A stretch of 63,995 nt of DNA, filler included, from Stramenopiles sp. TOSAG23-6 (GCA_900128565.1; 5 parts of 5 records of this genome joined end to end with filler, not necessarily neighbours in it), one strand, 5' to 3'; positions 6,126 through 63,942 are shown, counted from the whole stretch's first letter. Notes: generated by a model from the sequence alone, not told the origin. Translations and numbers: made by a program.

Positions 6126-9100
6126 TTAATTAACCATCGCAAAAGAATTTGCTGCTGCCCCTTGAAGCCGCACGATAATATTTTCCGCATCATGTATTTT
6201 TTTTAGTTGTAGTTGAATCCTTTCTTTTTTACCCGAAATATTTTTTGTGTCTGACAACAACGAAGCGAAAGACACCTTTTTTGAAAACAAGAAGGAATAT
6301 AAAGAAATTTCGAGATCTTTGTTCAATTTTCCTATTAATTTTAAAAGAATTGCCTTTGGTACAGAATCCTGAATTTTTTTACGAACGATGCCAAAATATG
6401 AATTTAGAACCAACTTAAGTAAACGGCTTTCAATTTCTTCAATTTCCAAAACACTTTTAGGCCTATACGCTATACGTCCGATTGCTGTCTTTTTTGATGC
6501 TGTTGCAGCTTTGTGCATTCGCAATTTTTGTTCTTCAGTACGTCTTTTTTGTTCAGCTCTTTGATGTTCCCGTTTGTTTTTTTCTTGGGCTTCTTTAGCA
6601 ATCTTTTGTTTGAAACGCCTCAAACGTTTCATATCTGTAACAATTTTAAATCGTTCTGCAAAACTTTGTTGTTTTATTCTTATCAATATTTTTTGATCAT
6701 CTTTTGAAGTTTCTGGCAGCCAACCAGCATGTTCACCAATCCAATCATCATCATCTACATAAATAAAATTAATATTAGTATCCGGATCTTTTTCTTCATC
6801 ATCGCCGATAATAACATCACCTGCTACAGGGCCCATTACACCATCATCAAACCTATCATCGTAATCATTCGTTTCTCGCCAACCGACGCCAAATGGGGCT
6901 ACAACTTTATACATTGGTCTCTGCCCCACTAACTCAAAAACATATTTTTTATCCCATTCGCCTGGATTTGATAATTCTATTTTATTTTCTTTTTGTTGTT
7001 TCATTTGAGAACCCCGAAGAAATAATTCAACATCTGGTTTTAAAGAGTTATTTGGAGGATAACTTTGATCTTTCCAATACTTAAATACTTCATCGCTTGT
7101 AATTTGTGCCCAAATGTTATAAAATTTATTACCTTTAAGAAATCCTGTTGATTTTTTTTGCAACTGTCCTTGCCATATAATAGTCGATGAAACTGTAGCA
7201 TTTTGTTCAAAGTTTCGAGGAGGAGGAGGAGGAGGTGCACCACGAGATTTATCTCTCCCATCATTGTCGTCACTCTCATCATCTTCTTCCAGATCTCGAT
7301 CTAACCGTTCCTCTTGTGCTTCAAGCTTGCGTTGGGCTTCAGCAATAACTTGAGCAGATATTTTGGCTATTACAAGTATGGTGAAGAAATATTTCAAAGA
7401 AAAAGAAATGTTAGGTACAAAATTTTCATAGTGAAAAAAATAAAATTAAAAATCATGATAAAAACACACGCGTCCGATTCGATGACGTTGACCAATAAAG
7501 TTAGGGTGTTCATTATTAATACGAACAAGTTCCATACTTATCATTTTATCCACTAATTCATCAGTTGGTGTACGTAAATTTCGAACTAATGAACCAGCCT
7601 CGGAACGAATGACGTCACCGAGCTGTGTATATCGTGTCATTTCAACTGTAGTCACGTGTGATACTAAATGTACAACATTATTTATTACATCGTCAATCAA
7701 CTTTTCACAAAATGGTCTCATTTGTTTAATACCTTTTCTGATAACACGTTCAAAGGCATCTCCAGGGGCGAATAGGCCAGTCCCAACAGTATTACCTAAA
7801 AGTTTTCTCAATTCATCTTTTGAGCATACTTGCATTATATCAATATCATCTAGTTGTTTCACAAATTGCTTAATTCTTAAATGTAGTTTTGCACCTTCTC
7901 GAAGTTTCGATGTGTAGGAATCAGTACCACTTCGTGTAGTCAAATCACTGATATTATCAATATTTCTTGTACAAACTGGTTCTCTGCGAAATTCTTTTAA
8001 TTGTAATTGATTTCGGACACCCATGGAATACGAAGTTAATGTTTTAGTAATGAGTTGAGCACGCTCCCTCGCATTTGAAGGTACGTCAACTAAGCTGTCA
8101 AGTAATGTCGTTTGTCTTTGAACAACTGCACTCACTTGACGTTGAATCTTGGGGAGATGTTGGACAATTGAATTTAACAATAATTGGTTGAGACGTTTTG
8201 CAAGATAAGCACTACCACATTGTGCAGATATAGTACTATACTTGGGATGCGATTTAAAAAAATTGGATTCAGCTCTTTGAGATGTTCTCAAAGTTACCCT
8301 TTCTTGCAAATCAGCTTGAGAGCGATTCACTACACCTATATAACCAAGTTTAAGTGGAATTACACCTTGTCCAGTAAGGGCACCAAATGCATCTGTTCCT
8401 CTATCCATTAAATCGAGTTTAGTAAGAACACCTAATGTCCGTTCTCCTGATGGATCTACTGTATGAGCTAATTGAAGTGCATCCGAAAGTGCAATATCTG
8501 TATTAGCAGCAGTAACAGCAAGTATGATGTATTGTAAACAAATATGTGTTTTTGAGTTTGAAATTCATTAGGTACAAAACTAAAATCTTTGCAAAAAACA
8601 AAATTGAAATTCATCATGATAACTTATATGCAATTCTTTTTCTCAATATAAGACATAATTAATTCACGTATAATTTCTTCAATATTGTCAGGTTGATTGC
8701 CCATAGGAACTCTAGTGATACCTGGAAGATCGATCACTGTTAAATTTAAAACATCTGCCGAGTAAATCTTTAAAAAAATAGGTTTTGCTGATATTGAAGA
8801 GCCCGATGCAATTTTCTCAGTGTCGTCAATAATTTCCTGTGCAATTTCACTAAAAATATCAAATCGACGGTTTGGAAGATGTCGAAATTCTCCGTATTCT
8901 TTAGTCAAGCCACGTGTTTTAACCAATGTAAGAACTAGCGGACGCCGCGTACAACAACCATTACTATCATGAGTGTGGTATATCAAGCATTTATACAATA
9001 ACTAAAATTACTGAAATTGAAAAAAGACTAAAAAAAATACTATAAAATTTGTTATACTGATGTGAAAAATATTTGTTTTTTTAGTAAAAATTTGTTAGGT

Positions 9101-10878
9101 ACAACATTTCGTATGAAACAAAAATGTTAAAAAAAACATACCTACGAGGTAAAAATCCACGACCAACAAGTGTTGTGAAGAAATATGTTTTCGGTTTGAA
9201 ATTTGTTAGGTATGATATTTCATACGAAAAAAAAAAATCGAAATGAAAATGAAGATTTTTTTTTTCGGTAAAAAAAAAAAAAAAATTCGTTAGGTACAAA
9301 ATTTCGTACTAAAAAAAAAAAAAATTCGAAATTGGTAAAAAACGGACAACAAACAAATGCTTCTAATACCGAAGATTTTCCTGCACTCTGACCTCCAACA
9401 ACAGCTATGGCGGGGAGATCCATTTCAAAATCATTGTTTGCTTCACTGACGGACGACATGGCATCTTGAAGAGTATTTATGAGTTCAACAATATCGGACA
9501 TATCATTTAAATTAAGCCCTTTGGCATTATCCACAGCACTCAAAATTTTACCAGTACCTACATTGTGAAAAAATATTTTAAAAAAAGTCGTTAGGTACGA
9601 AATTTCGTACGAAAAAAAAAATTAAATTCGAAATTGAAAAAAAATAAACGTACCTTCGTCAAAATGTCTTTGGAGAATTTTCGTACTTGCTTTACGAGCC
9701 AGGCTACGACCGACACTTGCATTTAGAGGAGCTTTTATGCGTGATTCATTGTTTTGAATTTGAGATTGGCGTTTTTGTTGTTGGAGACGTTTTAGACGGG
9801 AATTTTCAATTTCGGACTCTTTTGCTCTTGTTGTCATTCTTTCTAATTCTTTTGTTAGTCTAGCAATTTCGATCCTTTGCTCTGATGAATCCTGGGACGA
9901 AATTGTGGGCACAGATGATGCATTGATTCTTTCATTACGCTCTCTTTCCATTCTTTCTTTTCTTTTGCGATCACGCTCCGCTCGTTTTCTTTCCCTCTCT
10001 CGTTGCTTATCAGACTTACCATTTCCAAGGTCTTGTTGGATCGATATATCACGCACCACTGCGCGACTATCCAATTGTTTTTGTTTCTCATCTAATCGTC
10101 TACGTTCTTCTGCTTCTCGNTCTATTCTTTGTTTCTCATCTAANTGNCTTCGTTGTTCTTCCATTCGCTTCTGCCTCTCGTCAAATTGTCTACGTTCTTC
10201 TTCCAATCGTTTTTGTTTCTCGCGAAACTGTCTACGCTCTTCTGCTTCTCGTTCCACTTTTCGTTTCTCCTCTAATCGACGTGCTTCGGATTTTCGTTCA
10301 GCTTCATCGGCAAGTGCTTTCTGTTCTTCTAATCGTTTGCTCCGCCTAGCTTGATCAAGAAGTCGCTGCATATCTTCATCACGAAGCATTTTAGATCGTC
10401 GATCGCGGCGTTTCCTCTCTTCTTCTAGTTCTGACATCTCGGCTGCTTTTTTCTCAGCCAACTTTTTTTGCAACTTTGCTTTTTTTGCAGCCTTTCTTGC
10501 AGCAAGGCGTTCTAAAACGGCTGCTTGACGGAAAGCTTTGTTTTCTTCTTCTGAAGCATCTCTTGATGAAATGGATGCCTTTTTGCGTATTGGAGGTGAG
10601 GATGAAATTGCAGTGGACGGAACTAGTCGTAAGTTCTTCGATTTATAATGTCTTTCTCCAGCGATACCCCAGTCAACGAGCCACTTGTCCAATGAATCAT
10701 TCCATGATATTATCGTACCGGTAAGACCTGACTTGGAACCAGCGATTGCTTCAACGGAATCTCCAGGCTTCCAATCACTTTGAGTCGGTGGCATTGAAGG
10801 AAGCAATCTAAATCTTAGACAATTTGTAAGAATTGAAAAATTTAAGAATTGGATTATATTACAAATTTACAATGTCAT
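6126..10878 (-). CDS. Dynamin-family GTPase with N-terminal coiled-coil extension, GTPase, middle, PH and GED domains (7 exons)
   Basis: Exons 10878-10871, 10807-9654, 9557-9355, 9167-9142, 8963-8628, 8526-7470, 7373-6126 join in frame. Motifs [79 protein letters not shown]. Confidence 0.9.
7374..7469 (-). other. Family intron, GT..TT (96 nt)
   Basis: CGC|GTGTGT...TTGTACCTAAC...CACCATACTT|GTA; joins IGR-VIAKI in frame. Confidence 0.75.
8527..8627 (-). other. Family intron, AT..AT (101 nt)
   Basis: TGC AT|ATAAGT...GTACCTAAT...ACAATACAT|C ATA; restores dynamin [11 protein letters not shown]. Confidence 0.85.
8964..9141 (-). other. Composite intron, GT..AG (178 nt): family element (9057-9141) plus unrelated 3' part
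   Basis: CGT AG|GTATGT...GTACCTAAC...CACATCAG...GATAG|T AAT GGT; restores [13 protein letters not shown]. Confidence 0.8.
9168..9354 (-). other. Family intron, GT..TT (187 nt, two internal cores)
   Basis: GCA TTT|GTTTGT...CACAACACTT|GTT GGT; restores [15 protein letters not shown]. Confidence 0.85.
9558..9653 (-). other. Family intron, GT..AG (96 nt)
   Basis: GAA G|GTACGT...GTACGAAATTTCGTACCTAAC...CACAATGTAG|GT ACT; in frame. Confidence 0.85.
10808..10870 (-). other. Putative ordinary GT-AG intron (63 nt), not of the family
   Basis: ATG ACA TT|GTAAAT...CTAAGATTTAG|A TTG gives an in-frame ATG start. Confidence 0.5.
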
Positions 10879-11109: not shown

Positions 11110-12090
11110 ATGGCAATGCTAAGGAAACACCTTTTTGTTCTTTTGAATATAATTCGTGTCTTTGAAAGCACATCTATGGGAAATTTTCCTTTAAAAACCG
11201 AAGAAGGTATTCTATTTGATCCAGTTTTTGCTCAACCAACAAACGAACGAGAAAGGAAAGCAATAGCACTCGTAAAATCCAATGCATTAAAAAATGGGCA
11301 TTTGGCCCTTGAAATATTTAATCAAGAGTCAGAAATATGGGGTAATAATGGTGCATATACTAATATCGGTCACACATTTTTGATTTTGTTTAAGGAACTT
11401 TCAAAAGTAGAAAGCCTTGAATTACTTCAACAAGTTCAAATTTTGGAACAAGCAAAAGAAGCTTATGAGGAGTCCTTCAAAATATTTGCCTCAGAAGCGG
11501 CTCGAAGAGACATACAGAATGCAGCTAACCATTTTTTTTATTTCTTACACCCACACACCCGACGTCACTTAACTCTTAAAAGAATACCTGGAAAAGACAA
11601 TTATGTAAACAGACAANCAGGTTACTGGTTGCATAGGATACCCCCTTCAACACCGCTAATTTGTTTACTTCAACCTAACCACCTATCACACTGGCTTAAA
11701 AAATTTAACGGACGCCCACAGNCGCCGCCTGGTTTTGAGAATCATGAGGCTGGTGAAATGCCTGATTTTGGTAATGAACATCGTTTTGATCAAATAGAAG
11801 TTCTTTCTTTGGTGCTCAGAGAAGAAGAAATCGACGGACCGACATTTGACATTTTAATTGTACATTTTTATTTAAAAAAAAATATCTAAAATTGTACGAA
11901 AATTTGTACCTAACGACATTCAAATTTGACATATTCTTTCACAATATTTGGTTCCGATGGCTCAAATCTCAAAGAGTTGGGCATCGAGGACGATGAACTT
12001 CGTCATGATATTTCAGAAAGTTGGCTTCAAGAGTTGAAAAGATTTTATGAAATGAATGATGTATATGACACACAAAAAAAAAGGTGCTGA
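11110..12090 (+). CDS. Protein with helical (TPR-like) region and C-terminal SAM domain (2 exons)
   Basis: Splicing 11860-11949 gives the SAM-like LREEEIDGPTFDILI-GSDGSNLKELGIED; stop TGA 12088-12090. Confidence 0.65.
11860..11949 (+). other. Family intron, GT..TT (90 nt)
   Basis: ATT|GTACAT...GTACCTAAC...CACAATATTT|GGT; completes the SAM domain. Confidence 0.8.
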
Positions 12091-12239: not shown

Positions 12240-13253
12240 TTACACAGTCATNGTCGANTCAACATATCGACAAAGCATTTCGTTCAGAGGACCCACGGGT
12301 AGAGAGCCTGCCATTCCATAAATAGGCGCGTTACCCGAGGCTCCTTCTTCCCAATCTTTAATAGTTAAAGGCTTCGCTTCGCCCTCTTTAATTAAAGCAT
12401 TAAAGCAATTCCGTAAATCNGACTCAAATTTCTGAATCACACCATCNTCAGTATGTAGCATTGTGATACATAAATGAACAGATGCAGGTGATTGTAAATT
12501 GTTAAGACTCCAACCTAGTTTACTCATTTTATCAGAAAGAACAAAAACATTTACTTTTACACCACTACGTTCATCAACGACGGAACCAAACGATATCACC
12601 ATAGCTACTGGATTTCCGAGAACTTCAAGACCTGAAATGGAATCAATAGTTTTCTTTACTTCAGCTGCAGCTTCCATAATTTTCTCAGTTGCTCTCATAT
12701 ATCCTTCCTCACCCATACGAACCATAGCGGCCCATGTAGATGCCAAGAGTGCTCCCGGGCGAGATCCTGCAATTGTAGCAGTGGCATAGAGACCACCTGT
12801 CCATTTTGGATATGTAAAGTATTGATAGCGACGCATAGATTCATTTCGATATAATACAACTGATGTTCCTTTGCAGCTATAACCATATTTATGAGTATCC
12901 ACTGACATAGCAGTTACACCAGGTAAACTGAAGTCGAAATCTGGAATAGAACATCCAAGTTTTTTTGCAAATGGAAGGATAAAGTACTGTGAAAAATATA
13001 TTTTTTTTTACGAAAATTTTTTTGTTAGGTACGGAATTTCACACAAAAAAATTCATGGTACAAAAAATTCAATTGTAAAAACTTACAATCCCCCTAAGCA
13101 ACAATCTACATGGAGGCCAACATTATATTTGACTGCAAGACTGGAAAGTTTATCTATAGGATCTATAGTACCTTGAGCAAAGCTTGGTGCGGAACCAACT
13201 AACATAATAGTATTCGATGTAATAAAACTTTCTACATCTGATCCACGAAGTTT
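12240..13253 (-). CDS. SGPL1: Sphingosine-1-phosphate lyase (PLP-dependent), 5'-truncated by gap
   Basis: [59 protein letters not shown]. Confidence 0.92.
12982..13086 (-). other. Family intron, GT..TT (105 nt)
   Basis: GGA TT|GTAAGT...CACAGTACTT|T ATC; restores [13 protein letters not shown]; the CAG 5 nt upstream is out of frame. Confidence 0.9.
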
Positions 13254-13307
13254 ATGTATTTTGGAAAAATATTTCAAAAAAAATCTAAAAAATTTTGTTA
13301 GGTACAA
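13254..13307 (-). other. Family intron 3' half (..AT), truncated by gap
   Basis: TTGTACCTAAC...TTTCCAAAATACAT|AAA CTT. Confidence 0.8.
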
Positions 13308-13407
13308 NNNNNNNNNNNNNNNNNNNNNNNNNNNNNNNNNNNNNNNNNNNNTTAATTAATTAANNNNNNNNNNNNNNNNNNNNNNNNNNNNNNNNNNNNN
13401 NNNNNNN
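13308..13407. other. Artificial contig linker / assembly gap
   Basis: 100 nt: N-run, TTAATTAATTAA (stops in all frames), N-run. Confidence 0.97.
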
Positions 13408-13408: not shown

Positions 13409-16400
13409 CTTGGAATTAAATCTGATTTAACAATACAAAATACGTCACCTCTTCATATGATTCGATGGCATCGTGTAATTGTGGATGAATCACATGCAAT
13501 TAAAAATGTCGGTAATAAAATGTCCGAGGCATGTTGTAAATTAGAAAGTGATCGTCGTTGGTGTGTAACTGGTACTCCTTTCAATACTTCAACGAGTGAC
13601 CTTGTAGGACAATTAAAGTTTTTAAAAGTACATGGATTGGATGATCATCGTTTATGGGAACAAAGAGTTGAAAAGCCATGGGCGTCTTATAAATCTCGTG
13701 CTTCTCATAATGGTGGTATTGTCCCTCCTGGAGCCTTACTTTCTGTTTTAAAAAATACAATGGTACGACATGAAATGAAGCAAAAGTGGGGCCTGAAAAA
13801 TGTTCGGCAATTATTAACACTTCCACCAAAAATTGAAAGTTGTCGTGTGATTGAATGGGATGCGAATACTTTAGAGAAATATACTTCTTTACAAAAAGAT
13901 GCATTTACAAAATTCAAAAAAATTAGAGATCAAGGTCCAAATGAAATTTCACGAAATACTTTTAAATTGTTGACTTTACTTCGATTGTTGAGACAATATT
14001 GTAGTTCAGGTAGTCTTGCACCACCAACAGCATCTTCGACATCATCGGCAACACCTGTAACTAATGCAGCTCTTGAAAAACATCGAAGTAAAGAGTTAGT
14101 TTTAGATGAATTAGATAAATGTCCTATTTGTCATGATGATCAGACACTTCCTGCTGCACCAACAACATGCAAGCATTCATTTTGTTATGATTGTATTGCA
14201 GGATTATGTAATTCTTTCGAGGGTAAAGAAATTTCATGTCCGAAATGTCATGTCAAAATGAAAGGAATTAATCATATTCGACCAGTACGACTTACTCCTG
14301 CAGCAGAAAAGAAAATAAAAGATGCTAATGATGCTAAAGTTGCCGCGAACAAACTCAATGTTGAGGATATGCTGAAACTACCAAAGATAAAGGCATTAAT
14401 TGAGGAACTAAAAATATTACGAGCAGCTGACTCTACTTCCAAAGTACTTATATTTAGTCAGTTTAAACATACACTAGAACACCTTAAACTCGCTCTGTCG
14501 GCATCTGGTTTTCAATATAGAACTCTCACCGGAGATATGACTTTGAAAAAACGAGCCAAAGCTCTGTCAGAATTCCAAAATGATCCACCAACAACTGTCT
14601 TCCTGTTGTCTATGAGAGCTGGTGCTGTAGGTATCAATCTAACTCAAGCAAATCATGTTTTTCTAATGGAACCGTGCATGAATCAAGCATTGGAAGATCA
14701 AGCAATAGGTCGTGTTCATCGAATCGGACAAAAACGAAATGTGAAAATTCGAAGATTTGTCATTTCTAAATCAATAGAGTCACGAATTCGTGCAATGGCA
14801 ATTGCCAAAGTTGCAAAAGCCACAAAACATTCAAGTAACAAGTCAAAGAATTCTCCTGAAATTGCCGAGGAAGACATTTGGAGAAGTAAACTCAAAGTTG
14901 GCAATCACGTAGATGCTCAAGAAAAAGGCGGGAAATGGTTGGAAGGTCGAGTCGTCAGTATAGTGGACAATAAATGCAAGATTCGTTTCCGAGGTTGGAA
15001 AGTGGGTGAAAATAAAGATACTTATGATGAAACCTTTGATCTTTCTAAACATATCGATTGTGATAAAATACAAAAAAAATATACCGTTGTCAAAAATTGG
15101 CGTAAATATATGAAGAATGGTGACTATGTAGAGTGTTATGACTCGGAGGATAAAAAATGGTATTGTCGAAGATTACGTAGTAGTCCATGTATGTTTAATT
15201 TTTTTTCAAATTTAATTTTTTTTTCGTACTAAATTTTGTACCTAACAATTTTTTAGATTTTTTTTGAAATATTTTTCCAAAATACATCAGATAACTCTGT
15301 TTATCTTTTTCTTGGAGGTAAAAATGGTGCTTCGTATGGTCGTATAACTTCTTCATGCGATTCCGATAGTATCCAACGTTTGGGTGTTAATCTTGATTTA
15401 GAAGAAGTAGAAGAAGGTAGGTTGAAGAATATTGCAGAAAGATTTATGGAAAAGGTAGAAAGAATGACAGACCGCGAAGCTTCAGCTAGAAGAAAATCTT
15501 CAGCGAGTCGTTTGTCTGTTGGATCAAAGTTTGCTGGTAGTGTTGTTTCAGATAAGCAAATGTTACGCCAAGAAGAATTTAATGGGTTATTTGATCCCGA
15601 ATCAAGTTTTACACTACGCAATGTTGTAAGTGCTTCTTCAAAAGATAATATTTCAGTAAAAAAACAGACATTTGTTTCAGTTAAAGAAGCGCCTAAAGAA
15701 TTACCGAAAAACGAAAATGTTCTTCAAAATAATGCTAGTCAAACATTGGAAAACCAAGATACTAAAATGCCAAAGAAAATTAATGTAAGTGGTAAGTTAA
15801 AATCATCTGATAATGAAAATGTAATATTGTGTGAATCATTAACAATTAAGTGTCCGGCGGATCTAAATGAAAATCGTTATTTACGTGTCGTTACATCAAA
15901 TAGTATTGTTATGGTGACTCCTGTGCCAAAGGAAATCAAAGCGGGTGAAACATTTTGTATTGATGGACCACCGGGAAGTAATAAAGATGATATTCATATA
16001 ACTAATTTTGAAATGAAGGAAAAAATGGATATTTGTTTGAATGCAGACCCAGAAATACGAAATATTATAAAAATACCCGTTGCTAATACCGCGAATGATA
16101 ATACTCATACAAAGAAAAGTACTATTATAAAGATACCAGTTGCCAACATCTCATCTAAAAACAAAAGCGAATCTGTACAGGAAAACATCTCATCTAAAAA
16201 CAAAAGCGAATCCGTACAGGAAAACATCTCATCTAAAAACAAAAGCGAATCTGTACAGGAAACATTTTGTGTATGTAAAACGACCAACGGCAATGGTTTC
16301 TTCGTTGGATGTGAAGGCTGTGATGGTTGGTATCATCCAAAGTGTATTGGTCTTAGTGAGGATCAATGCTCAAACTTGAGTGATACGTGGCGTTGTCCTT

Positions 16401-39977: not shown

Positions 39978-40058
39978 ATGTATTTTGGAAAAATATTTCA
40001 AAAAAAATCTAAAAAAAATTGATAGGTACAAAATTTACTATAAAAAAAAAATTCGATT
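39978..40058 (-). other. Family intron 3' part (..AT), truncated by gap
   Basis: TTTTGTACCTATC...TTTCCAAAATACAT|AT GAT. Confidence 0.8.
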
Positions 40059-43216: not shown

Positions 43217-43221
43217 TTGTT

Positions 43222-43269
<48 letters not shown>

Positions 43270-51622: not shown

Positions 51623-51971
51623 ATTCGACGGTTTACAAAGGATCAACTGTATAGTTATAGTATTAGAATGCTGTTTACGAATATTCTAGATACAAGAAAG
51701 ACATTGGTGTCACCGTGTATTTCCAAAGGAGAGTCAACAACCCACTTTTTTGTTATTTTAATGTGTGTCTTTCGCGCTCCTGCAGGCCAACCCTATTATA
51801 AAAAGTTAGGTACAAAATTTGGTAGGAAATATTTTTAAAATGTAATATTATTTTGCGCCAGGCCAGTAATAGCGGTTAAAAAAACTGATGATCCAAAAGA
51901 AACGTTTCTACAGTACCTTTTACTTTACAGTCACAACGTATCCGTATATTTCAAAAGAATCAAATAGCAGT

Positions 51972-52937
51972 ATGTTGATTCATTTGTTCACGTATGTCTT
52001 CTTGTTTATATGGTCACAATCACTTGTTTCAGCATACCAAGAATTAACTTCGGATAATTTCAAACCTTTCTTAAAAGAAAATCCCTTTACGTTGGTTGTC
52101 TTCTTCGCTCCTTGGTCTGAATCTTGGGAAAAGTTCGAGGAAGACTTTGAAACCCTTGACGAAGAAATGGCAGAGAGATTTCCAAAAGTTAATTTAGGTC
52201 TTTGCAATATTGATGAACACTTCACTCTTTCTTCTTACAGTGGAAAAAATACCCTATCTGTAAAGTTTTTCTGGGGTGAAGCCTATGATTCAAAACCAGT
52301 ATCTTACCTTGATGTTCTAAATGCTGAAAGCATTTTTGATTTCATAGAAGCCGTTTTGGATTCAACAGTAGAAGTGACTGTTGATGATATGGATGACGTT
52401 GTCGAAGAATTTGTGAAAATTACATTTGGACAGGAATCAAATGACAGAAGTAATAAGCAAATCGAACTGCTCAAACAGGTACAAAAACGAGTCGCCGAAA
52501 CGGATAATGAAACTGAAAAAAAGCTTCATTATTTGTACAAAGTTCACGTTAAAATAATGACAGGTTTAATGCAAAATTCACAAACTCTTGCTGAAAGAAT
52601 TCATTCACTAAACATGGAACTTAATCAATTTGGAGAATTCATGAAAATTCAAGATTACAAAAAAAAGAAAACGGAATCGGTCTTATGTACGTGTTCATCA
52701 TGAATTTCGAATTTATTTTATTTTTCATACGAAATGTTGTACCTAACAAATTTCGAATTTGACATATTTTTTCAAAATACATATCAACAGTATGCTGACA
52801 AACTTCTACCTCCAAAATATCGTTCAAATGCTAAAAATGTCTTATTTCCTGATTCTACACCCAATGAGAGAGGAGCTAAAAAAGCTAATTTTGAAGTTCA
52901 GTCAAATGGTGGAGCGAAACGTATTCTGTTAGAATAA
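51972..52937 (+). CDS. Non-catalytic thioredoxin/PDI-like ER protein with helical C-terminus (2 exons)
   Basis: Signal peptide; ELTSDNF..LVVFFAPWSES (WCxxC lost). Confidence 0.7.
52687..52782 (+). other. Family intron, GT..AT (96 nt)
   Basis: TTA T|GTACGT...TTCAAAATACAT|AT CAA; in frame. Confidence 0.82.
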
Positions 52938-53366: not shown

Positions 53367-53402
53367 TAACGATTTTTTTTGAAATATTTTTTCACAATAC
53401 AT
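53367..53402 (+). other. Family intron 3' end (..AT), truncated by gap
   Basis: TAAC...GAAATATTTTTTCACAATACAT. Confidence 0.8.
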
Positions 53403-53776: not shown

Positions 53777-54962
53777 ATGGAGGCGAATATTTACACATTT
53801 TTAGTGCAATACTATGATGCGTATGCAAAGGCAAATAAGCCATATACTTTAATGTATCATGAAATGAAAAATGGCCAGCCTAACCAGTTGGAGTTGGTCA
53901 ATCCAAAGACGAAACAAAAGTTTATTGCGAAACATAGAACTCCGCATAAGCTTCGTCATTTCATTTTGGGTAATAACGTCACTATAAAAGGGCGAACATT
54001 TAATGTAGAGAGCTATAATGATAAGCAAACCAAACAGGTATTTTCTGTATTGCATGAAAAGACTCTCGTTTGTGTGTCTCCTCAAGCATTCAAAAACCTA
54101 GGTCTCTTATTGGACCTAATCGAAGGATCAGGTTTGTTATTAGGTCAGTTAAAGACTTGTCGTCTGAGTATAGAAACAGTTAAATACTTGATTAATATTG
54201 CTGGATTTGATTCTATTGATGCAGAATGCCTAAGAGGTCCAGGTGTAATGTGTGCTTTTGAAGTCGTTGGAGAGAAAGCGAGACAGATGTGGTTAGAGAT
54301 TAGCGCTCGTGCTGGAGTAGGTCCAATATTTGCCACTTCAAAAACGACTACTGATGCAACAGTCAACTTTTTCTTTGGTAATAATCAGCGGCAAGATATT
54401 GCTCAATCAAGCGCAGAAGTCATGCAACGTGTCAATGACGCTTGTGCTTTGCTTCTTATCAAGCCTCATGCTGTATCTCAGGGATATCACGGGAAAATCA
54501 TTGCTCAGGTGTCAGCTGAAAATTGTTTTGAAATATGCGCTTGCGATAAGGTAATGTTTTCTAAATCTGATGCTAAAGAGTTTTTAGAGTGTTATTCGTT
54601 TTTGCATAATATATCTGAGCATGTAGATCAATTGTCTTCTTCTTCGTGTATTGCATGTATGTTTTATTTTTTTTTTGTATGATTTTTTTTTCATACGAAA
54701 TTTTGTACCTAACAATTTTTTTAAGATTTTTTTTGAAATATTTTTCCAAAATACATTGTGTGTACGTGGAAAAGAAAATGTCCAAGCCCAATTACGTGCC
54801 TTTGCTGGACCATTTGATGTTATCGTTGGTAGAGAAATTAGTCCTCAATCTCTTAGAGCCCAGTTTGGTTATAATAGAGTAAGAAATGCTGTGCATGTGA
54901 CAGATTTAAAAGAAGATGGCGTGTTGGAATGCAATTTTGTATTTAATACTTTGAGGCTTTGA
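53777..54962 (+). CDS. NME7: Nucleoside diphosphate kinase 7 (DM10 + two NDK-like domains) (2 exons)
   Basis: DM10 FLVQYYD..ILGNNVTIKGR; LLIKPHAV; LRAFAGPFD..PQSLRAQFG..RNAVHVTDL.EDGVLE. Confidence 0.88.
54657..54756 (+). other. Family intron, GT..AT (100 nt)
   Basis: GCA T|GTATGT...CCAAAATACAT|TG TGT; restores SCIALCVRG. Confidence 0.9.
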
Positions 54963-55128: not shown

Positions 55129-56782
55129 TTATTCGATTTTATTTAAAATAGATTTTGCATTTTTAATAATTTGTTCAATATTGTTATTCATTACCATTTG
55201 TTTCCTTGATACAATCTTCATTTCCTCTAATAACCCATTACTTAACATTTCCTTGTGGGTTTCTTGATTTTCTAAATATTCTTCTTTACATCCAAATAAC
55301 GCTTTCATTAGATTATTTATAAGTTTTGATGTTGCCGAGACTCTCCCCTCTGGTGTCTTATCATCAGGTTTACATTTTCTTAATACTCTTAATTTATTTA
55401 TCGTATCGTGAAATTTATGATTTATTTCTCTGAGATTTGCCTTTGCTAATACATCACCCTTGCTTGCAAGCTTTGAATATTTACGATATAACCACATTAT
55501 TTGTAAACAATTTGATGCCGTATGACGAAGCTCTCTCTTATAATTTTTTCTCATGACAATATTTATTAGATAGTTTTCACCCTCTGAAGTGTTACTTGCT
55601 TCTACAAAAACGGCAACCATCATTGTACTTATTACTAAACCACCCAAAACACCACCCAGTATAATCGTGATTTTTCCTATGGGAGACACGGCGACAGTAT
55701 TCCCATACCCTACAGTTGGCATCGTTATTAAAACTAAATAAATACCATCATGAAATGATGAAATTTTAGATGTCGGTATTTCTCTCTCGAGAATACACAG
55801 AGCTGCCCCTGTTGCGACAACAATTGTAAATAATAATGGTAGAAGAAGAAGAAGTATTTTGGGAAAATATTTCAAAAACAAAATCGTTAGGTACAAAATT
55901 TCGTACGAAAACCAAAAAAAAAATAAACTCGAATTTGAAAAAAAAATAAAACATACAATCGGGTTATACTTGAGCAACATTTTAAAGTTGAAAGAAATAG
56001 ACAATGAATCAATTGCGTTCATATTTGCAATGAAATGAATTTGCTGTCCATAAAATCCTGAGTGATTTCGCATTACCCTCAACATGGTATAGATTCTAAA
56101 TAGAACAACTATGTTCTGTGAAAAAATATTATTTTTTTTTTTTTTTTAACGTTAGGTACAATTTTTTTTTTCTTAAAAAAATGTAAATTGTACACTCAAT
56201 TTGGAAAACATACATATTAAGCACATTAACATGCATTGGATAACCATTTAAATTTGTATAAAAGTCCATACCTACTGGAATATGTAGTAGTGCAATGAAA
56301 CATTCTAAAATCCAATTTTTGGTTTCGGTAGAGTCAAATTTTGTCAATAATCCTGTATTTCGTGGAAGGATATTTCTCAAGGCTTTGATTCGTATTATTG
56401 TTTTATACCTAAGTGTGTGCAGAATAATAATAATAATGCTATCAATTGATGTTGCCCATTTTAATATTCGTGCTTTGTATGTATCATGATACAACTTTCC
56501 TTGGTGTTTCAACGCCCAGATACGCATTTCATCGTCAAGAAGAAAGCACAAAAGAATAACAAAAATACTCATTAATGCTGTTATATCTTCGTAATGTTTA
56601 CGACTTGTGAAGAGACGGTTTAATTCTCCCAATTCAGCTAAAGAAACAACTGTCTTATTATCGAAACTACATTCTAAAAGTTGTTTTTTATATACGGCAT
56701 ATAGATCATCCTCGTGTTTTTTTCTTTTTCCTGAAATGTCTTTGCTTTTCATTCGTACAGCATTTTTAGCACTTGAATTCAT
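55129..56782 (-). CDS. SK/KCNN-like calcium-activated potassium channel (3 exons)
   Basis: LECFIALLHIP, S4 LFRIYTMLRVM, pore LITMPTVGYG, CaM-binding-like ASNCLQIMWLYRK. Confidence 0.85.
55852..55956 (-). other. Family intron, GT..TT (105 nt, stop-free 3n)
   Basis: CCG ATT|GTATGT...CCCAAAATACTT|CTT. Confidence 0.8.
56111..56213 (-). other. Family intron, GT..AT (103 nt)
   Basis: AAT AT|GTATGT...CACAGAACAT|A GTT; the CAG 5 nt upstream is out of frame. Confidence 0.88.
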
Positions 56783-57114
56783 TGATGTATGAATGTAAAA
56801 GAAGCAGTCTTACTATTGGTAAAACGTAATCTATATTTACTGATAAATTGTTATAGTAAAGAGTATCCTCTTCGTAAGAAAAAAAGTATCTAAAAGATGT
56901 TGGCCAATGGCCAGAACAACAAAAAAAAAATGATAAAACAAAAAAAACAGGTTTGTGCGAAATATTTTTTACGACCATCTCGAGTCATTGCGATCGTCGC
57001 GATGATTTGCACCACGTCTCACACACAGCAGCAGTAAACTCACGAGTAAAGTCTGAGCTATAATTAGATTGCTACCGACGTCAGTCGTATTGTTAGGACA
57101 TCGGGTAGGATAGT

Positions 57115-60100
57115 ATGGCGCAATTTCCTGGTGGGGGTCTTTTGACACCAGGACTTTCAGCAAAACTGTATGGACGTCGTACAAGTCAAGAAACACCCAG
57201 ACAGTGTGAACCTCAAGGACGACTAAATTTTGGCAGCACTCCAGACCATAGGAATATGGATACAACGCAAGCATATACTCCTGCAGTACGACAGTATTCA
57301 GCATCAGATAAAATGCATACAGGCAGACGTACATCATTGACTAATGAAAATGCCGGTACAAAATTTTCTTTCACGCCTGCTGTAGATAGAGACGGAAACT
57401 TTGTTACTAATGACGACGACAGCTTTGATCCTCGGTTTGACGCCCCTTCCCTTTTTCCTTCTGATTCACGACCAACAATTCCAGAATCAACTCATCGTGA
57501 ACAAGCAACATTGAATGCGGGTCATTGTGAGTTTGTTTCTCTGGATTTACTTCAAAAATTTCGAGAATCTTTAGACTCTAGTCGTGAGAATAGTGACTTT
57601 GGAAATTTGCTCCACTTATATGAAACACACTGTGACGAAGCTGTTCAGAAATTAGTAGATAATTGTCCTCGGCGTGGTGGAGAATGGGACAGAGAAGAAG
57701 TGCAAAGACAAACTGAATTCTGTTCGCAACTAAAGCTTGAACGTGATACGTGGCAGTTATTAAGGGGGATACATGACCTTCGACAAGAATTAGCCATAGT
57801 CCCACCATATGACCCTACAACAGCAACGTGTGGAACATCAGCAGATGCCATATCTGATGCTTACGCACAGAACCATGTACTCCAATTACTTCATCGTGTA
57901 CGTGATTGGCTTCAATTATGTGCACGACCTCACTTGCCGCTTTGGAAGCAACCACCAACACCTGCACGAAATCTAGGTTCTTGGCCTGGAACATTTCAAA
58001 CACAGAAGGAAAATGCACTCAAGGAAAGTAATCAACAAAAAAACTATGCAAATAGAGGTAATGCTATGCAAAGTTCAGCAAAACAAAACATGAAATCAGT
58101 CTATTCTGGTGTTGATCCTGATATGTGCTTTCGAGGTGGTCAGTTGAGTGCGACAGACCTGTCTACTGAAACAGAGCTTTTATTAAGTATATGGCAATGT
58201 CTTCGCGCAGGTGACTTACAACGAGCTCAACAGGTTTGTCGACAACATAGTCAGTCATGGCGCGCGGCCTCTTTAGATGGTGACTGTCCCTTACATGATA
58301 TTATTGATACAAATCAGATGAATCAAGATGATAATAATTCCGTCAGACCTGCGACGAATGTATCAAGTGGAGGGAGAAGGACACGAAGTGGTAATGCTCA
58401 TAGATGGTTATGGAAAGCCTCATGCTGGGAAATATCTGAAAAACAGTGGAAAGCTGGGAGACATCAGAATAATCATGAATGTAGAATAGAAAATCATCAA
58501 AGAACTTCAGATTCATCAAGTGCATCTGAATTAGAAAGTATTATATATGCTACATTATGTGGCAATATTAATGTACTAATGCAATCTAAATATTGTGCTA
58601 CATGGAATGATCAGTGCTGGGCACTTATTGGATCAATTTTGCAAGTAGCAGAAGATTCAGTTCTACTGTCTCACAGAGAAGACCAATTGTTTAAAAGCCG
58701 ATTTCTCCCTGGTCCATATACTCTAAAATATGCACAATTACAGCAACAACGTACTGCAAATATTAGACAGATGGAAGCTGATATTGGTAAATTATTTAAA
58801 CGTCTCCTAAATAATTCTTCTACTAGTGTAAGTGAAGAAGCGCATTCAATATTTCGTATAGTTCAAGCAAGCGTAATTCTCCGAGTATCAAATATTCTTT
58901 CAGCAGCTCAGAATGAAAACAAAAATGAAAACAAAAATGAAAACAAAAATGAAAACAAAAATAATAATAATAATGATACTGTAATGAGTGATGCCTCCTC
59001 TTGTGACACAAAATTAATCTCTACAAATGAATCTATTTCTTTAGTTGTTGATTTAGTCAATGACGTCATTCGACCTATTCTGGATGATCCCGTTAGAGTT
59101 TCGCCTGTCCATCTTCGATTTGTTGCTCATTTAGTTTTATATCTAAAAACGTTGGATCAAAATAACTCGCAATTTTCGGAAATTTCAAAGGAAAGTAGAT
59201 CTGTTACGTATCATGTATGTGATGATATTATAGAAACGTATATTGAACACTTAGGTGCCGCAGGAAGACTTTGTGATGTGCCATTATATGCCATGTATTT
59301 ACCTACTAAAAGACGGATCAGTGTGTTTGCGTCAATTTTGGAGAGGATTCATGATACAAAAGAGAGAACAGATTGTTTAAATGAAGCTAGAAAATATTTT
59401 CCAGATGATTTGAGTATTGTCACAACATCTGTTGTACAGCAAATTATGTACGTTTTTGTTATTATTTTCAAAATTCAAAATTCTGTACTGTTTTTTGTAC
59501 CTAACAAATTGTAAATATTTTTGAAATATTTTTTTTCCAATGCATGGCAACTCCTCGAATTCCTAAAAATAAGCAAAACAGTCAACGTTTATTATCAACA
59601 ACTCCAGCGAGACATCTCTCACCATTAGGTAAATCATTTAATAATCGTGGTGACAATGCTCAGGATGATACATTTGATATAAACATGAACAAAACTCTGT
59701 ACAATTTGACGAATGAAACGATTGAAAATCATTCTACTGAATTTGATGATGATGATGATGATGGAAATTTCACTACAAATGATATGGAGCGTCTTAATGT
59801 CGTTCGTTGGTTATGTTCGTCATCACAACAACAATATGAAAACATCAGTAAAGATGCCGAAAGAAATGCCGCTGAGATGGAGTTGAATCGAACACAGATT
59901 CAAACTGACGAAGATGCTGCACTATTAGATGAGACGATTCAAACACAGATGCAACAGCAAGAAATCAGATTACGACAAGTATTGAGTCAATGTAAAGAAG
60001 CTGTTTCACAATCTAATAATCTTATGCTTGAATTTGTATCTTCCTGTGATTCAACAGGTTGTTGGGAGAGTAAACTTCCCGCCGCGCGTAAATTACTTAT

Positions 60101-61686: not shown

Positions 61687-63942
61687 CTAAGATTGCGACG
61701 CGGCGAGGGCGGTACGAAACAGCTCTGTACCCTTTCGTGCCAGCATCTTTTTCTCAACTGCATCATCGATTTCTTTTTTGGACGTTTCAAGTTTACTTTT
61801 AATTTGCTTAACTTCAGCTCTTGCTTGACGACCACGTTCAATAGCTTGAAGTTTTGTTGCAGCTTTCTCTCGTCGTTGCATTTCGGCAACTTCCTCTGCT
61901 GCTTTCTGCTCAGCTTTTGCCCATAGTTTCTCAAGCTCCGCATATGGCGACATAGGAGGTGTAGCAGCACGCTGAGCACGCTTAGCAGCAGCAGCAGCAA
62001 TCTTAGCAAAATCAACAGCCTCAGTAGCAGCATTTCGAGCAGCTGTACGATGGGGTAGGTATCCATGCAACCAATCTACAAAATCCATTTTATCTTCCTG
62101 ATACATCAAAGGATTGAATGTTGAATTTTGTACAAATTTCGATTTCGATATTTTTTTGAATGCACCGTTACTCGAATTCTTGTGATTCAGCTGATATTCA
62201 TTTTCTGGTGACATGAGTTGTAGTAGATGCAAAACAGACATTGCCTTTTTGCTTACCATATGTATTTTGGAAAAATATTTCAAAAAAAATCGTTAGGTAC
62301 AAAATTTCGTACGAAAAAAAAATCGAATTTGAAAAAAAATAAAACATACATGATTCACTCCATAAGGTTCAGTAATGGAGTCTAATTTATGAACCCTTTG
62401 ATACACCCTAGTCGCGAAATTTTCAACTTGTGATGCACGATTAACCGGTTGGTCAAAACATAATGCTGTGCTAATTTCACCAACTTCACCTTTGAGATCT
62501 CTTACCAAATTGACAAATTTTGTGCAAAACTTTGGATAATTCACACAATTATAAAACATAATATGCTTTGGAAGTTTTGTAAAAACATCTAACATCCTCT
62601 TAATAAGTGCAAAGCTATCAAAACCCTGTGGTCGATTAACACTAAACACAGATATATCATCTCTTGCTGGTGCTGAGGCTGGTGCTGGTGCTGGAGTGTA
62701 AACCTTTAAATGAGGCACTTCATTCGGGTTGCGACCTAGCTGACAATGACCATCACAATGACCTGTCACAATTAGCCAGTCATGAGCTGAAGGTGTAAAT
62801 TTCTTTTTGATATGATCAAATTGATCAATTTGAAGTAACACAACTTCACGACCTTGTTTTTCTAATTGTTTTTTAAAATATACAGATGTCCTTCCTTCAT
62901 TTGTATTAGTTAGAGTCAAGATAAATACTCTCTGTCCAGTTTTTCGATGAACTTTATTATCAATTTTACGTGTAACACGATTACCGGAAATAGGCTGTGA
63001 ATTGTGTAAATTGTTGTCTACATCAGCAATGCGTTGTTCAATATCGATGATGAGCTTTTTGTTCTCAGAGTCGATCTGGGCTTTTTGGCTGACAAAGTCG
63101 AGCGGAGCAATGTTTTGTTTTATCTCGAAGTCGAGCCGAGCAATGATGTCTTTTAGACCTAGTTGTCGCGTAATGTCGGCAGAATCAGTTTTTTCTAACT
63201 GTTCTTTCCAACTAGCCTTCTCAGCTCTGAGTGATTGTATCTTTCGAAAAGCACTTTCGTCTACACGCTCGTCGTCATCTTCATCATTAAAATACTCGCT
63301 TTCAAGTACTTCACTTGCAGACAACCGATGTTCGTCCTCTGGTGTGACCATTTTCATGAGTAAATCAATGAATTGTGACTGCTGCTTCTGCGACATTCCA
63401 GGAAAGCGAATTGACTGAATAATAAACCACATTTTTTCCATTACAGAATTCAGATGGATATTTTCTCCCTTCTCTTCCGCTCCTGCTTTTGGTGTTGCAG
63501 CTTTTTCCTTACCTTCAGCACTCTGAATAGCAGCATTCTCTCGTCGCATTTGTTGAACTCTTGCTTGACGACCACGTTCAGCAGCCTGAATAGTTGTAGC
63601 AGCATTCTCTCGTTGCATTTGTTCAACTTTATCTCTTGCTTGACGACCACGTTCAGCAGTCTGAATAGCAGCATTCTCTCGTCGCATTTGTTGAACTCTT
63701 GCTTGACGACCACGTTCAGCAGTCTGAATAATTATAGCAGCATTCTTTCGTCGCATTTGTTGAACTTTATCTCTTGCTTGACGACCACGTTCAGCAGCCT
63801 GAATAGTTGTAGCAGCATTCTTTCGTCGCACTTGACGACCACGTTCAGCAGCCTGAATAGTTGTAGCAGCAATGTATTTCTCCAACTCCTTTGCTTTCTT
63901 CGACTCATTTGCTTCACGATCAAGGAAAACATAAAAAGGTTC
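61687..63942 (-). CDS. IQ-repeat protein, 5'-truncated (at least 3 exons)
   Basis: Tandem AATTIQAAERGRQAR IQ motifs at about 63500-63870 and one in the last exon. Confidence 0.75.
62260..62349 (-). other. Family intron, GT..AT (90 nt, near-consensus copy)
   Basis: AAT CAT|GTATGT...TTTCGTACGAAATTTTGTACCTAAC...CCAAAATACAT|ATG. Confidence 0.85.

What the first reader, a model, noticed from the sequence alone, without database searches (positions are those of the whole stretch)
8527..62349. 2-bp direct repeat plus GTAY...RTAC inverted ends: signature of an introner transposon
Seen: in 23 of 30 complete copies the last two intron bases equal the last two upstream exon bases, and they covary: AT/AT in 17, TT/TT in 4 (9168, 11860, 12982, 55852), AG/AG in 2 (8964, 9558). 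The core between the repeats often starts GTAT/GTAC and ends ATAC, giving ATGTAT...ATACAT. Established: introners in some algae are non-autonomous DNA transposons that build splice sites from their TIR and target-site duplication. Inference: here the acceptor dinucleotide is simply the duplicated 2-bp target (AT preferred), so splicing restores the exon exactly without needing AG. No transposase is visible in the window.
Basis: partly seen in the sequence, partly recalled or inferred. Interest (0 to 1): 0.88.

Follow-up and report, generated by a model that had tools for sequence, protein, structure and literature searches.

The report
Repeat-derived introns ending in AT
Every intron I found in this stretch of a marine eukaryote's genome is a copy of one ~95-base repeat that is cut out at GT...AT instead of the usual GT...AG, and it is flanked by a two-base repeat that looks like a transposon footprint.

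Summary
I defined 30 complete introns, all copies of one ~90-110 nt repeat and all sense to their host gene. Label shuffling expects 14.2 matches (p about 1e-5). The locus-specific match is confined to positions -1 and -2.

Removing each GT...AT segment keeps the reading frame open in 30 of 30 cases and fuses exons into long ORFs. Poly-A RNA contigs skip 2 of the 9 copies laid, exactly, leaving one AT. Alignment to solved AAA ATPases shows no indel at two junctions.

The GT-AT reading fits the variant copies better than AT-AC. The element carries GTAYGT, a TACCTAAC branch-like box and a T-rich tract, and its consensus is an imperfect palindrome.

An introner with a 2-bp target-site duplication is the best explanation but is not proven. 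The terminal inverted repeat is only 4-6 nt, 17 matches are uninformative, 7 copies lack the repeat, and no transposase or empty site was seen. Close precedents exist (Fritillaria, Amoebophrya, algal introners), so I rate it a new variant of a known kind.

The parts
7374..7469 (-). complete intron copy, gc|GTGTGT...ATACTT| (no repeat)
   Evidence: ORF open across the junction
8527..8627 (-). complete copy, at|ATAAGT...ATACAT| (starts AT, not GT)
8964..9141 (-). 178-nt GT-AG intron; element plus about 77 extra nt; ag|GT...AG|
   Evidence: junction reads [19 protein letters not shown], a dynamin G1-region motif (my reading; motif recalled)
9168..9354 (-). 187-nt composite intron with two tandem element copies; tt|GTTTGT...CACTT|
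9558..9653 (-). complete copy, canonical ag|GTACGT...GTAG|
11860..11949 (+). complete copy, tt|GTACAT...ATATTT|
12982..13086 (-). complete copy, tt|GTAAGT...GTACTT|; CAG lies 5 nt upstream of the end
13254..13307 (-). 3' part of a copy cut by a contig end (linker)
15189..15287 (+). complete copy, at|GTATGT...ATACAT|
20854..20944 (-). complete copy, ct|GTACGT...ATATAT| (no 2-nt repeat)
24449..24547 (-). complete copy, at|GTTCGT...CAGTAGAT|; two upstream AGs are out of frame
28981..29073 (+). complete copy, at|GTACGT...ATACAT|
30024..30122 (+). complete copy, gt|GTATGT...ATGTAT| (no 2-nt repeat)
30187..30289 (+). complete copy, at|GTATGT...GTCAAT|
31103..31212 (+). diverged copy, at|GTATGT...AANACAT|; an in-frame alternative end lies at 31182
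32008..32103 (+). complete copy, ca|GTATGT...ATATAT|; no boundary ambiguity at all
   Evidence: slide 0/0
32526..32633 (+). diverged copy, at|GTACGT...NATACAT|
39978..40058 (-). 3' part of a copy cut by a contig end
41139..41234 (-). complete copy in the AFG2-like AAA gene, at|GTACGT...ATACAT|
41351..41445 (-). complete copy, tt|GTATGT...CTACAT|; junction DEL|EAL
   Evidence: chain 9lgo_A residues 690-729, then query 2-35 on 731-764 (query 1 extrapolates to 730); no indel
41568..41657 (-). complete copy, tt|GTACGT...ATACAT|
   Evidence: chain 5vc7_A residues 287-346, then 349-388; no indel
41842..41932 (-). complete copy, at|GTTCGT...ATACAT|; junction VQWD|DVGGL
42362..42459 (-). complete copy, at|GTATGG...ATACAT|
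47099..47194 (+). complete copy, gt|TTATGT...ATACAT| (position +1 is T; a boundary 2 nt upstream gives the same protein)
47591..47684 (+). complete copy, at|GTATGT...ATACAT|
   Evidence: contigs from other loci diverge exactly after 47684 (table 7)
50721..50829 (+). complete copy in the lipoyl synthase gene; exact excision seen in RNA
   Evidence: joint 50718>50828, skips 109, ambiguity 4, poly-A run X2
52687..52782 (+). complete copy; exact excision seen in RNA
   Evidence: joint 52684>52781, skips 96, ambiguity 2; X2 record 15 is contiguous across it
53367..53402 (+). 3' part of a copy starting at a contig end
   Evidence: E=0.0022
54657..54756 (+). complete copy, at|GTATGT...ATACAT|
55852..55956 (-). 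complete young copy, tt|GTATGT...ATACTT|
   Evidence: 90% identical to its nearest copy
56111..56213 (-). complete copy, at|GTATGT...CAGAACAT|; CAG lies 5 nt upstream and is out of frame
59448..59545 (+). complete copy, at|GTACGT...ATGCAT|
62260..62349 (-). complete copy closest to the family consensus, at|GTATGT...ATACAT|
63943..63995 (-). 3' part of a copy cut by the window end; ends ...ATACCT|
51793..51830 (.). short fragment of the element's central box between two genes; the only piece outside an ORF
   Evidence: (E=0.0025)

Best explanation
The window is a set of about 13-kb contigs of an unidentified marine eukaryote. All 30 introns I could find are copies of one ~95-nt non-coding element, an 'introner'.

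In the sense orientation each copy supplies a U2-type donor (GTAYGTTTT), a branch-like box (GTACCTAAC, 31-45 nt from the 3' end) and a T-rich tract. It ends ...ATAC followed by two bases that in most copies repeat the last two exon bases.

Most likely a non-autonomous cut-and-paste element inserted with a 2-bp staggered cut. The target is AT by preference and sometimes TT or AG. The second copy of the target became the last two intron bases. The spliceosome removes the element plus one target copy as a GT-AT intron (variants GT-TT and GT-AG), and the exon is restored exactly.

Shown: a single multi-copy family; sense orientation; exact excision; frames restored; a non-AG 3' end; a locus-specific 2-nt repeat.

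Inferred: DNA transposition with a TSD; GT-AT rather than a shifted reading of the ambiguous copies; a spliceosome that accepts YAT.
For: - GTTAGGTAC occurs 24 times against 0.15 expected, and there are 32 profile hits at E<1e-3.
- All 30 complete copies are sense to an ORF, and their removal keeps frames open in 30 of 30. It fuses exons into ORFs of 1360, 1076, 1285, 742, 738 and 678 aa, among others.
- Poly-A RNA contigs skip exactly 109 and 96 nt at 2 of the 9 complete copies in the laid stretch, leaving one AT.
- PDB coordinates are continuous across two junctions.
- The repeat is present in 23 of 30 against 14.2 expected, p=1e-5. TT/TT covaries (p=0.0034) and occurs in both 3'-end sub-types of the family, CCAAAATAC and CACAAT. 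The match is limited to -1 and -2.
- Exon positions beyond -2 and the downstream exon show no strong preference by eye (not tested).
- The consensus matches its own reverse complement with score 20, against -1.7 +/- 6.8 for shuffles; 2 of 1000 shuffles reach it.
- Copies are 49-96% identical to one another, so they cannot be ancient orthologous introns.
- Three of the eight contig ends at linkers fall inside copies. The non-poly-A RNA runs laid 648 and 580 contigs, with depth concentrated in the bins holding element copies. This points to high copy number.
- GT-AT reading: GT at +1,+2 in 28 of 30 and T at -1 in 28 of 30. The AT-AC reading would give AT at the start in only 17 of 30 and AC at the end in 22 of 30.
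- The two AG copies put AG exactly where the others have AT.
- Five copies have an AG 2-7 nt upstream of the end. For 24449-24547 I checked the two AG ends and both break the frame.
Against: - The terminal inverted repeat is only 4 nt (6 with the AT), and GTAT is also the donor signal.
- RNA folds of six copies are no more stable than shuffles (z -2.6 to +0.3).
- 17 of the 23 matches are the family-wide palindromic AT, which is uninformative by the published criterion. The AG/AG pairs fit the ordinary splice consensus. The locus-specific evidence therefore rests mainly on four TT/TT copies.
- 7 of 30 copies lack the repeat. They are not older by sequence (Mann-Whitney p=0.86 and 0.98). All 7 youngest copies keep the repeat, against 16 of 23 others, Fisher p=0.15.
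- No transposase was found in 40 ORFs. No full copy lies outside a gene or antisense, but about 90% of the window is ORF, so that is weakly informative (0.89^34 = 0.019).
- No empty site or presence/absence polymorphism could be examined.
- RNA support covers only 2 of 9 copies, both of the ambiguous AT/AT type.
- Some contigs from RNA libraries retain the intron (X1 record 8; X2 record 9).
Confidence: 0.6

Rival explanations
1. The intron family spreads through RNA. Excised intron RNA is reverse-spliced into other transcripts at a preferred 'AT|' proto-splice site, then reverse-transcribed and recombined. There is no TSD, and the exon AT is a site preference.
For: 30 of 30 complete copies and all 4 partial copies are sense. 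No full copy lies outside an ORF. The repeated unit ends exactly at the intron's last base in another locus too (table 7, place 47684). No transposase is in the window. The TIR is very short.
Against: TT/TT and AG/AG covariation is not expected without duplication. The whole element is an imperfect palindrome, as in foldback elements and MITEs. With about 90% ORF content, sense-only copies are what selection would leave after random DNA insertion.
Confidence: 0.15
2. The match reflects a splicing rule and not an insertion scar. This spliceosome prefers the same short motif (NAT or YAT) at the end of the upstream exon and at the end of the intron, like the YAY triplets of Fritillaria. Selection keeps both, whatever mechanism copied the element.
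For: In Fritillaria, a YAY triplet often precedes the donor and almost always ends the intron, and 3' AT is the commonest end (34-44%) (PMC13326754 section 21). Here YAY ends 21 of 30 introns and precedes 10 of 30. In 6 of the 7 mismatched copies the intron keeps AT.
Against: No known factor reads both sites. A pure signal model predicts a family-wide match but not the locus-specific TT/TT pairs. The Fritillaria pattern is itself attributed to transposon TSDs by the review PMC11282704.
Confidence: 0.13
3. The true termini are AT-AC, with boundaries two bases to the left. The introns would be AT-AC introns of the major or minor spliceosome, and the 'repeat' would be an artefact of reading them as GT-AT.
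For: The tool reports both RNA joints as AT..AC, with an ambiguity of 2-4 nt. 17 of 30 copies can be read ATGTAY...ATAC. Copy 8527-8627 starts ATATAAGT under this reading.
Against: 13 of 30 copies do not have AT before the GT. Position -3 is C in 22 of 30 and ATAC sits at -6..-3 in 16 of 30. Shifting copy 41351-41445 would turn the conserved Walker-B DEL into DEH. There is no ATATCCTT donor. The branch-like box lies 31-45 nt from the end, not the 10-26 nt I recall for U12-type introns. GTAYGT is conserved at 28-30 of 30 per position.
Confidence: 0.07
4. The elements are removed from DNA, like ciliate internal eliminated sequences bounded by a short direct repeat, and not by RNA splicing.
For: One copy of a 2-nt direct repeat is retained after excision. 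Both element-containing and element-free forms occur in public runs.
Against: Strict sense orientation, a conserved GTAYGT donor, a branch-like box and a T-rich tract all point to a spliceosomal intron. The element-free forms were seen only in a poly-A RNA library. ORFs are long under the standard genetic code.
Confidence: 0.02

Closest known systems
Introners of Micromonas pusilla and Aureococcus (Huff et al. 2016, recalled; as summarised in PMC11282704 and PMC9860276, passages read)
   Same: Short non-autonomous repeats that create introns on insertion. They have a TSD plus a TIR. One splice site is carried by the element and the other lies in or next to the TSD. Splicing leaves the mRNA length unchanged.
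   Different: Those TSDs are 3 nt (M. pusilla) or 8 nt (Aureococcus sp., PMC9860276 Fig. 2F legend), and the termini are canonical GY-AG. Here the repeat is 2 nt, the TIR is only 4-6 nt and the 3' end is AT.
Non-canonical introns of Fritillaria borealis and F. pellucida (PMC13326754 abstract and sections 4, 21, 30; PMC11282704 passages; Henriet 2019 is not held)
   Same: The same short motif sits at the exon end and the intron end (YAY). 3' AT is the most frequent acceptor. There is a U-rich tract. A MITE/TSD origin is proposed. Processing is by a U2-type spliceosome.
   Different: The main classes there are AG/AC and AG/AT with many other termini. Here the donor is a well-conserved GTAYGT and one sequence family accounts for all introns seen. 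The host here encodes a class-I heme peroxidase that I would not expect in a tunicate (recalled), but its lineage is unresolved.
Introner elements of Amoebophrya (PMC7789003, passages)
   Same: Repeated non-canonical introns with direct repeats over the exon/intron borders and inverted repeats at the ends. No transposase is linked to them.
   Different: There the direct repeats are 3-5 nt, the inverted repeats 8-20 nt, and no terminal dinucleotide is preferred. Here the direct repeat is 2 nt, the inverted repeat 4-6 nt and the termini are a consistent GT...AT.
Introner-like elements of Symbiodinium and Polarella (bioRxiv 10.1101/2020.10.14.339549, passages)
   Same: Splice sites are recruited from TSDs. 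Some classes create introns in one orientation only.
   Different: TSDs are 3-8 nt and boundaries are G[T/C/A]-AG.
Introner family 4 of an Acanthoeca sp. metagenome-assembled genome (PMC9860276, Fig. 2D legend and methods only)
   Same: A marine plankton genome with an example intron of 109 nt, described as having 'clear TIRs but no TSDs'. That is how ATGTAT...ATACAT would look if the AT were counted as part of the TIR.
   Different: I could not see its sequence, because figures and supplements are not held. Any relation is unknown. I did not try to establish where the window comes from.
U12-type AT-AC introns
   Same: 17 copies can be read as AT...AC.
   Different: There is no ATATCCTT donor, the branch box is too far from the 3' end, and 13 copies cannot be read that way. 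The family features are recalled.

Membership tests
Introner (transposon-derived spliceosomal intron family) | Many introns of similar sequence at non-homologous positions in different genes | tested here: met
   30 complete copies in at least 15 genes; pairwise identity 49-96%, median 68%
Introner (transposon-derived spliceosomal intron family) | Removed precisely from mRNA | tested here: met
   Exact skips of 109 and 96 nt in poly-A RNA contigs for 2 of 9 copies laid. Frames are restored in 30 of 30. There is no indel against PDB homologues at 2 junctions.
Introner (transposon-derived spliceosomal intron family) | Target-site duplication, meaning a locus-specific match of the flanks and not just a family-wide motif (criterion of PMC9860276) | tested here: met
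   23 of 30 against 14.2 expected, p=1e-5; positions -1 and -2 only. Only 6 matches (TT x4, AG x2) are locus-specific.
Introner (transposon-derived spliceosomal intron family) | Terminal inverted repeats (6 nt or more in PMC9860276) | tested here: inconclusive
   GTAT/ATAC is 4 nt, or 6 nt if the AT is counted. The whole consensus is palindrome-like (2 of 1000 shuffles reach its score), but the folds are weak.
Introner (transposon-derived spliceosomal intron family) | Recent gain: lineage-specific positions or presence/absence polymorphism | not testable with these tools
   No genome is held. One related locus was found (L001). No orthologous empty sites were available.
Introner (transposon-derived spliceosomal intron family) | Autonomous partner with the same termini | not testable with these tools
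   None among 40 window ORFs. The rest of the genome is unavailable.
Tc1/mariner-type (Stowaway-like) MITE | TA target-site duplication and TIRs of 10 nt or more (recalled) | tested here: not met
   The repeat is AT, TT or AG, never TA, and the TIR is 4-6 nt
U12-type (minor) intron | Donor [A/G]TATCCTT and branch box TCCTTAAC 10-26 nt from the 3' end (recalled) | tested here: not met
   The donor is GTAYGTTTT. The box is TACCTAAC, 31-45 nt from the end.
Fritillaria-type non-canonical introns | YAY triplet before the donor and as the last three intron bases; non-GT donors dominate | tested here: inconclusive
   YAY ends 21 of 30 introns and precedes 10 of 30, but 28 of 30 donors are GT
Euglenid/diplonemid nonconventional introns | No conserved borders; extensive pairing of the intron ends | tested here: not met
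   Borders are conserved. The end pairing is 6 bp, and fold z-scores run from -2.6 to +0.3.

The most novel reading that the evidence does not exclude
An unidentified marine eukaryote, apparently outside the tunicates and dinoflagellates, has had nearly all its introns created by one 2-bp-TSD foldback element. As a result it routinely splices GT...YAT introns. AG is not needed: in one checked copy nearby upstream AGs break the frame, and four more copies carry an AG 5-7 nt from the end. The 3' site would be set by the element itself, through a fixed distance from its branch box and/or the short helix between GUAU at the start and AUAC just before the last two bases. This would be an independent origin of non-AG splicing driven by an introner invasion.
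Probability: 0.4. Interest if true: 0.75.

Novelty: new variant of a known kind. Interest (0 to 1): 0.6.

Why it matters
If the reading holds, this is a compact case in which one transposon family both made a genome's introns and fixed an unusual 3' splice-site rule (YAT). The insertion scar would serve as the acceptor.

It would add an independent lineage to the few known to escape the GT-AG rule (Fritillaria, Amoebophrya, euglenozoans). It offers a simple system for asking how the second step of splicing chooses its site: one family, a conserved donor and branch box, and a variable last dinucleotide.

Practically, gene finders that assume GT-AG would probably mis-annotate the intron-containing genes of this organism. 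One database ORF call (P0001) already reads straight into an intron.

Tried and rejected
- ORF length alone as a boundary test misled at short exons. It picked the wrong frame at 41351-41445 and 41568-41657. I replaced it with a frame test at fixed family positions and PDB coordinates.
- Public collections: a 21-nt degenerate core pattern found 1 metagenome locus. That locus (L001) has one copy, also at|GT...ACAT|. The looser patterns in viral contigs (28 loci) and genome contigs (120 loci) were chance hits: apart from L001, the loci gave only 5 partial profile matches (E 2e-5 to 9e-4) and no full copy.
- RNA: 7 of the 9 copies in the laid stretch have no bridging contig. Four other joints (41185>42416, 41646>41842, 47194>47588, 47684>52683; sides 20-26 nt; runs X1 and X4) link different element copies. 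I treat them as repeat chimeras or other loci.
- Lineage: dynamin, peroxidase and Nup107 searches, a cluster look-up and the Atlas gave no clear placement. The Nup107 search returned nothing.
- Age against repeat retention: no significant trend.
- RNA folding of single copies: not significantly stable.
- Covariation between +4 (T/C) and -6: none seen by eye.
- Rfam and tRNA scans: nothing.
- Literature: no held paper contains both 'introner' and 'GT-AT'. Henriet 2019 is not held.
- Supplements are closed. The family lists and TSD tables of PMC9860276 and PMC12130899 may already catalogue this family, and I could not check.

Full report
WHAT THE WINDOW IS

GC content is about 29-42%. Four N44-TTAATTAATTAA-N44 linkers lie at 13308-13407, 26707-26806, 40059-40158 and 53267-53366, so the window is five contigs of about 13 kb joined artificially.

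After conceptual splicing, about 90% of the window is open reading frame. The genes are ordinary eukaryotic ones: DNA ligase, class-I heme peroxidase, a dynamin-like GTPase, an SNF2/RING helicase, a WD40 protein, a giant SPRY/NHL/HECT ligase, an AFG2-like AAA ATPase, MFS transporters, lipoyl synthase, NME7-like, an SK-type channel and Nup107. No transposase, integrase or reverse-transcriptase domain appeared among the 40 ORFs scanned. Rfam and tRNA scans found nothing.

Marine metatranscriptomes hold parts of the sequence. The lineage could not be placed.

THE ELEMENT

GTTAGGTAC occurs 24 times against 0.15 expected. A profile built from window copies finds 32 hits at E<1e-3, and two more diverged copies were read directly. 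In all there are:
- 30 complete introns, 28 of them 90-110 nt and two of 178 and 187 nt;
- four copies cut by contig ends or the window end;
- one short intergenic fragment.

In the sense orientation the consensus reads at|GTATGTTTT...TTTCGTACGAAATTTTGTACCTAAC...T-rich...(C)CA(A/C)AATACAT|.

OBSERVATION

At boundaries fixed by the family alignment and the frame, 23 of 30 copies have identical exon and intron terminal dinucleotides.

Shuffling gives 14.2 expected matches, p=1e-5. Without the AG pairs it is 21 of 28, p=9e-4. The Fisher test for TT gives p=0.0034. The locus-specific excess is confined to -1 (p=0.0018) and -2 (p=0.0006) and is marginal at -3 (p=0.03). It is absent on the downstream side. 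Exon positions other than -2 (A in 19 of 30) and -1 (T in 26 of 30) show no strong bias by eye (not tested).

THESE ARE INTRONS AND THEY ARE REMOVED EXACTLY

All 30 copies are sense to an ORF. Deleting each segment keeps the frame open on both sides in 30 of 30. Deleting all of them fuses exons into single ORFs. Examples are 6129-10866 (1360 aa), 40766-44463 (1076 aa) and 57109-61061 (1285 aa).

In the one stretch I could lay (40400-53266, nine complete copies), a poly-A library (X2) has contigs that skip 109 nt at 50718>50828 and 96 nt at 52684>52781. The positional ambiguities of 4 and 2 nt include the GT...AT reading. The other seven copies have no bridging contig. Some contigs in RNA libraries retain the intron. 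Four further joints with short sides link different copies, and I discount them.

For the AAA gene, each exon was aligned separately to solved structures.
- On chain 5vc7_A, the exon before intron 41568-41657 covers residues 287-346 (61st residue at 347). The split codon falls at 348. The next exon covers 349-388.
- On chain 9lgo_A, successive exons cover 690-729 and 731-764 for query residues 2-35, which puts query residue 1 at 730.
- There is therefore no indel at the two 'TT/AT' introns.

WHICH TERMINI

With a 2-nt repeat the cut can be read as GT-AT, TG-CA or AT-AC. The variant copies favour GT-AT.
- G and T at +1 and +2 occur in 28 and 30 of 30. T at -1 occurs in 28 of 30 and A at -2 in 25 of 30.
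- The AT-AC reading would start with AT in only 17 of 30.
- The two AG copies carry AG exactly where the others carry AT.
- Copy 32008-32103 (ca|GT...AT|ac) has no ambiguity at all.
- Shifting 41351-41445 would change the conserved Walker-B DEL to DEH.
- Five copies have an AG 2-7 nt upstream of the frame-keeping end. For 24449-24547 I checked the two AG ends and both break the frame.
- The donor GTAYGT, the TACCTAAC box 31-45 nt from the end and the T-rich tract look U2-type and not U12-type (family features recalled).

ORIGIN

The published test for a TSD asks for flank matches that are specific to each locus and not shared by the whole family (PMC9860276 methods). By that test the AT/AT pairs are uninformative. 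AT is also its own reverse complement, so it could equally extend the inverted ends ATGTAT/ATACAT. The signal therefore comes from TT/TT (four copies, in both 3'-end sub-types of the family, CCAAAATAC and CACAAT) and AG/AG (two copies, which also fit the ordinary splice consensus).

The consensus is significantly self-complementary overall: score 20 against -1.7 +/- 6.8, with 2 of 1000 shuffles reaching it. This suits a foldback element or MITE. However, the terminal repeat is short and single-copy folds are weak.

Seven copies lack the repeat, and in six of them the intron still ends AT. Two of these (41568-41657 and 47099-47194) could be explained by a synonymous change in the exon (my reading). 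Copy age does not predict loss of the repeat.

Sense-only, genic-only copies would also fit an RNA route. With about 90% ORF content, though, that pattern is what selection would leave after random insertion.

I therefore hold a 2-bp TSD by a DNA transposon as the best explanation (0.6). The rivals are reverse splicing (0.15), a splicing-signal rule (0.13), AT-AC (0.07) and DNA-level excision (0.02).

COMPARISON WITH WHAT IS KNOWN

- Introners that take a splice site from their TSD are established in algae and dinoflagellates, with canonical ends.
- Non-AG ends tied to flank repeats are described in Fritillaria. There, YAY triplets sit at both sites and 3' AT makes up 34-44% of introns (PMC13326754 section 21; review PMC11282704).
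- They are also described in Amoebophrya, with direct repeats of 3-5 nt plus inverted repeats.
- A survey that included marine metagenome-assembled genomes reports an Acanthoeca sp. family with 'TIRs but no TSDs' and an example intron of 109 nt. I could not see its sequence.
- No held paper pairs 'introner' with 'GT-AT'.

The present family combines a conserved GT donor, a 2-nt repeat and a YAT acceptor, and within 64 kb I found no intron outside the family. That makes it a new variant of a known kind and not a new kind.

VERDICT

Interest is 0.6. Supplementary tables of the introner surveys, which I could not open, may already list this family.

Noticed in passing
13308-13407, 26707-26806, 40059-40158, 53267-53366: N44-TTAATTAATTAA-N44 linkers join contigs of nearly equal length (about 13.2-13.4 kb). 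Three of the eight contig ends fall inside an element copy, as expected if the repeat breaks the assembly.
   Followed up: partly
9168-9354 (-): One intron holds two tandem element copies with two branch-like boxes. The second copy lacks the donor end.
   Followed up: partly
8964-9141 (-): This copy has about 77 extra nt after the usual end and uses a canonical AG. The protein junction still fits the dynamin G1-region motif as I recall it, without a gap.
   Followed up: partly
8527-8627 (-) and 47099-47194 (+): Two copies do not start with G at the family's +1 position (ATAAGT and TTATGT). They may be spliced at shifted sites or poorly spliced. No RNA evidence is available.
   Followed up: no
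12982-13086, 24449-24547, 30187-30289, 31103-31212, 56111-56213: An AG lies 2-7 nt upstream of the frame-keeping 3' end; in four of the five copies it is a CAG or TAG after a T-rich run (in 30187-30289 it follows A). For 24449-24547 I checked that the AG ends break the ORF.
   Followed up: partly
51793-51830: A roughly 40-nt fragment of the element's central box lies between two genes, flanked by GC-rich sequence. It is the only piece outside an ORF.
   Followed up: partly
window 7449-8564 (-); protein P0001: A database ORF call that is 100% identical to the dynamin exon runs on into the intron (...[10 protein letters not shown]). It was therefore called on unspliced DNA.
   Followed up: yes
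34187-34591; 26403-26690; 63511-63888; 43071-43329: There are in-frame tandem repeats inside coding regions: 45-nt units in the HECT/SPRY gene, 72-nt LRR units, 69-75-nt units in the last gene, and long ATT/AGT trinucleotide runs in the AAA gene's N-terminal part.
   Followed up: no
L001:2250-2340: The single related metagenome contig carries telomere-like CCCTAA/TTAGGG repeats about 150 nt from its element-bearing gene.
   Followed up: no
41139-42459 (-): Five introns crowd the last 1.3 kb of the AAA gene (donor-to-donor spacing 527, 275, 212 and 211 nt), while the 2 kb upstream have none. This might reflect chromatin-guided insertion, as reported for algal introners (recalled).
   Followed up: no
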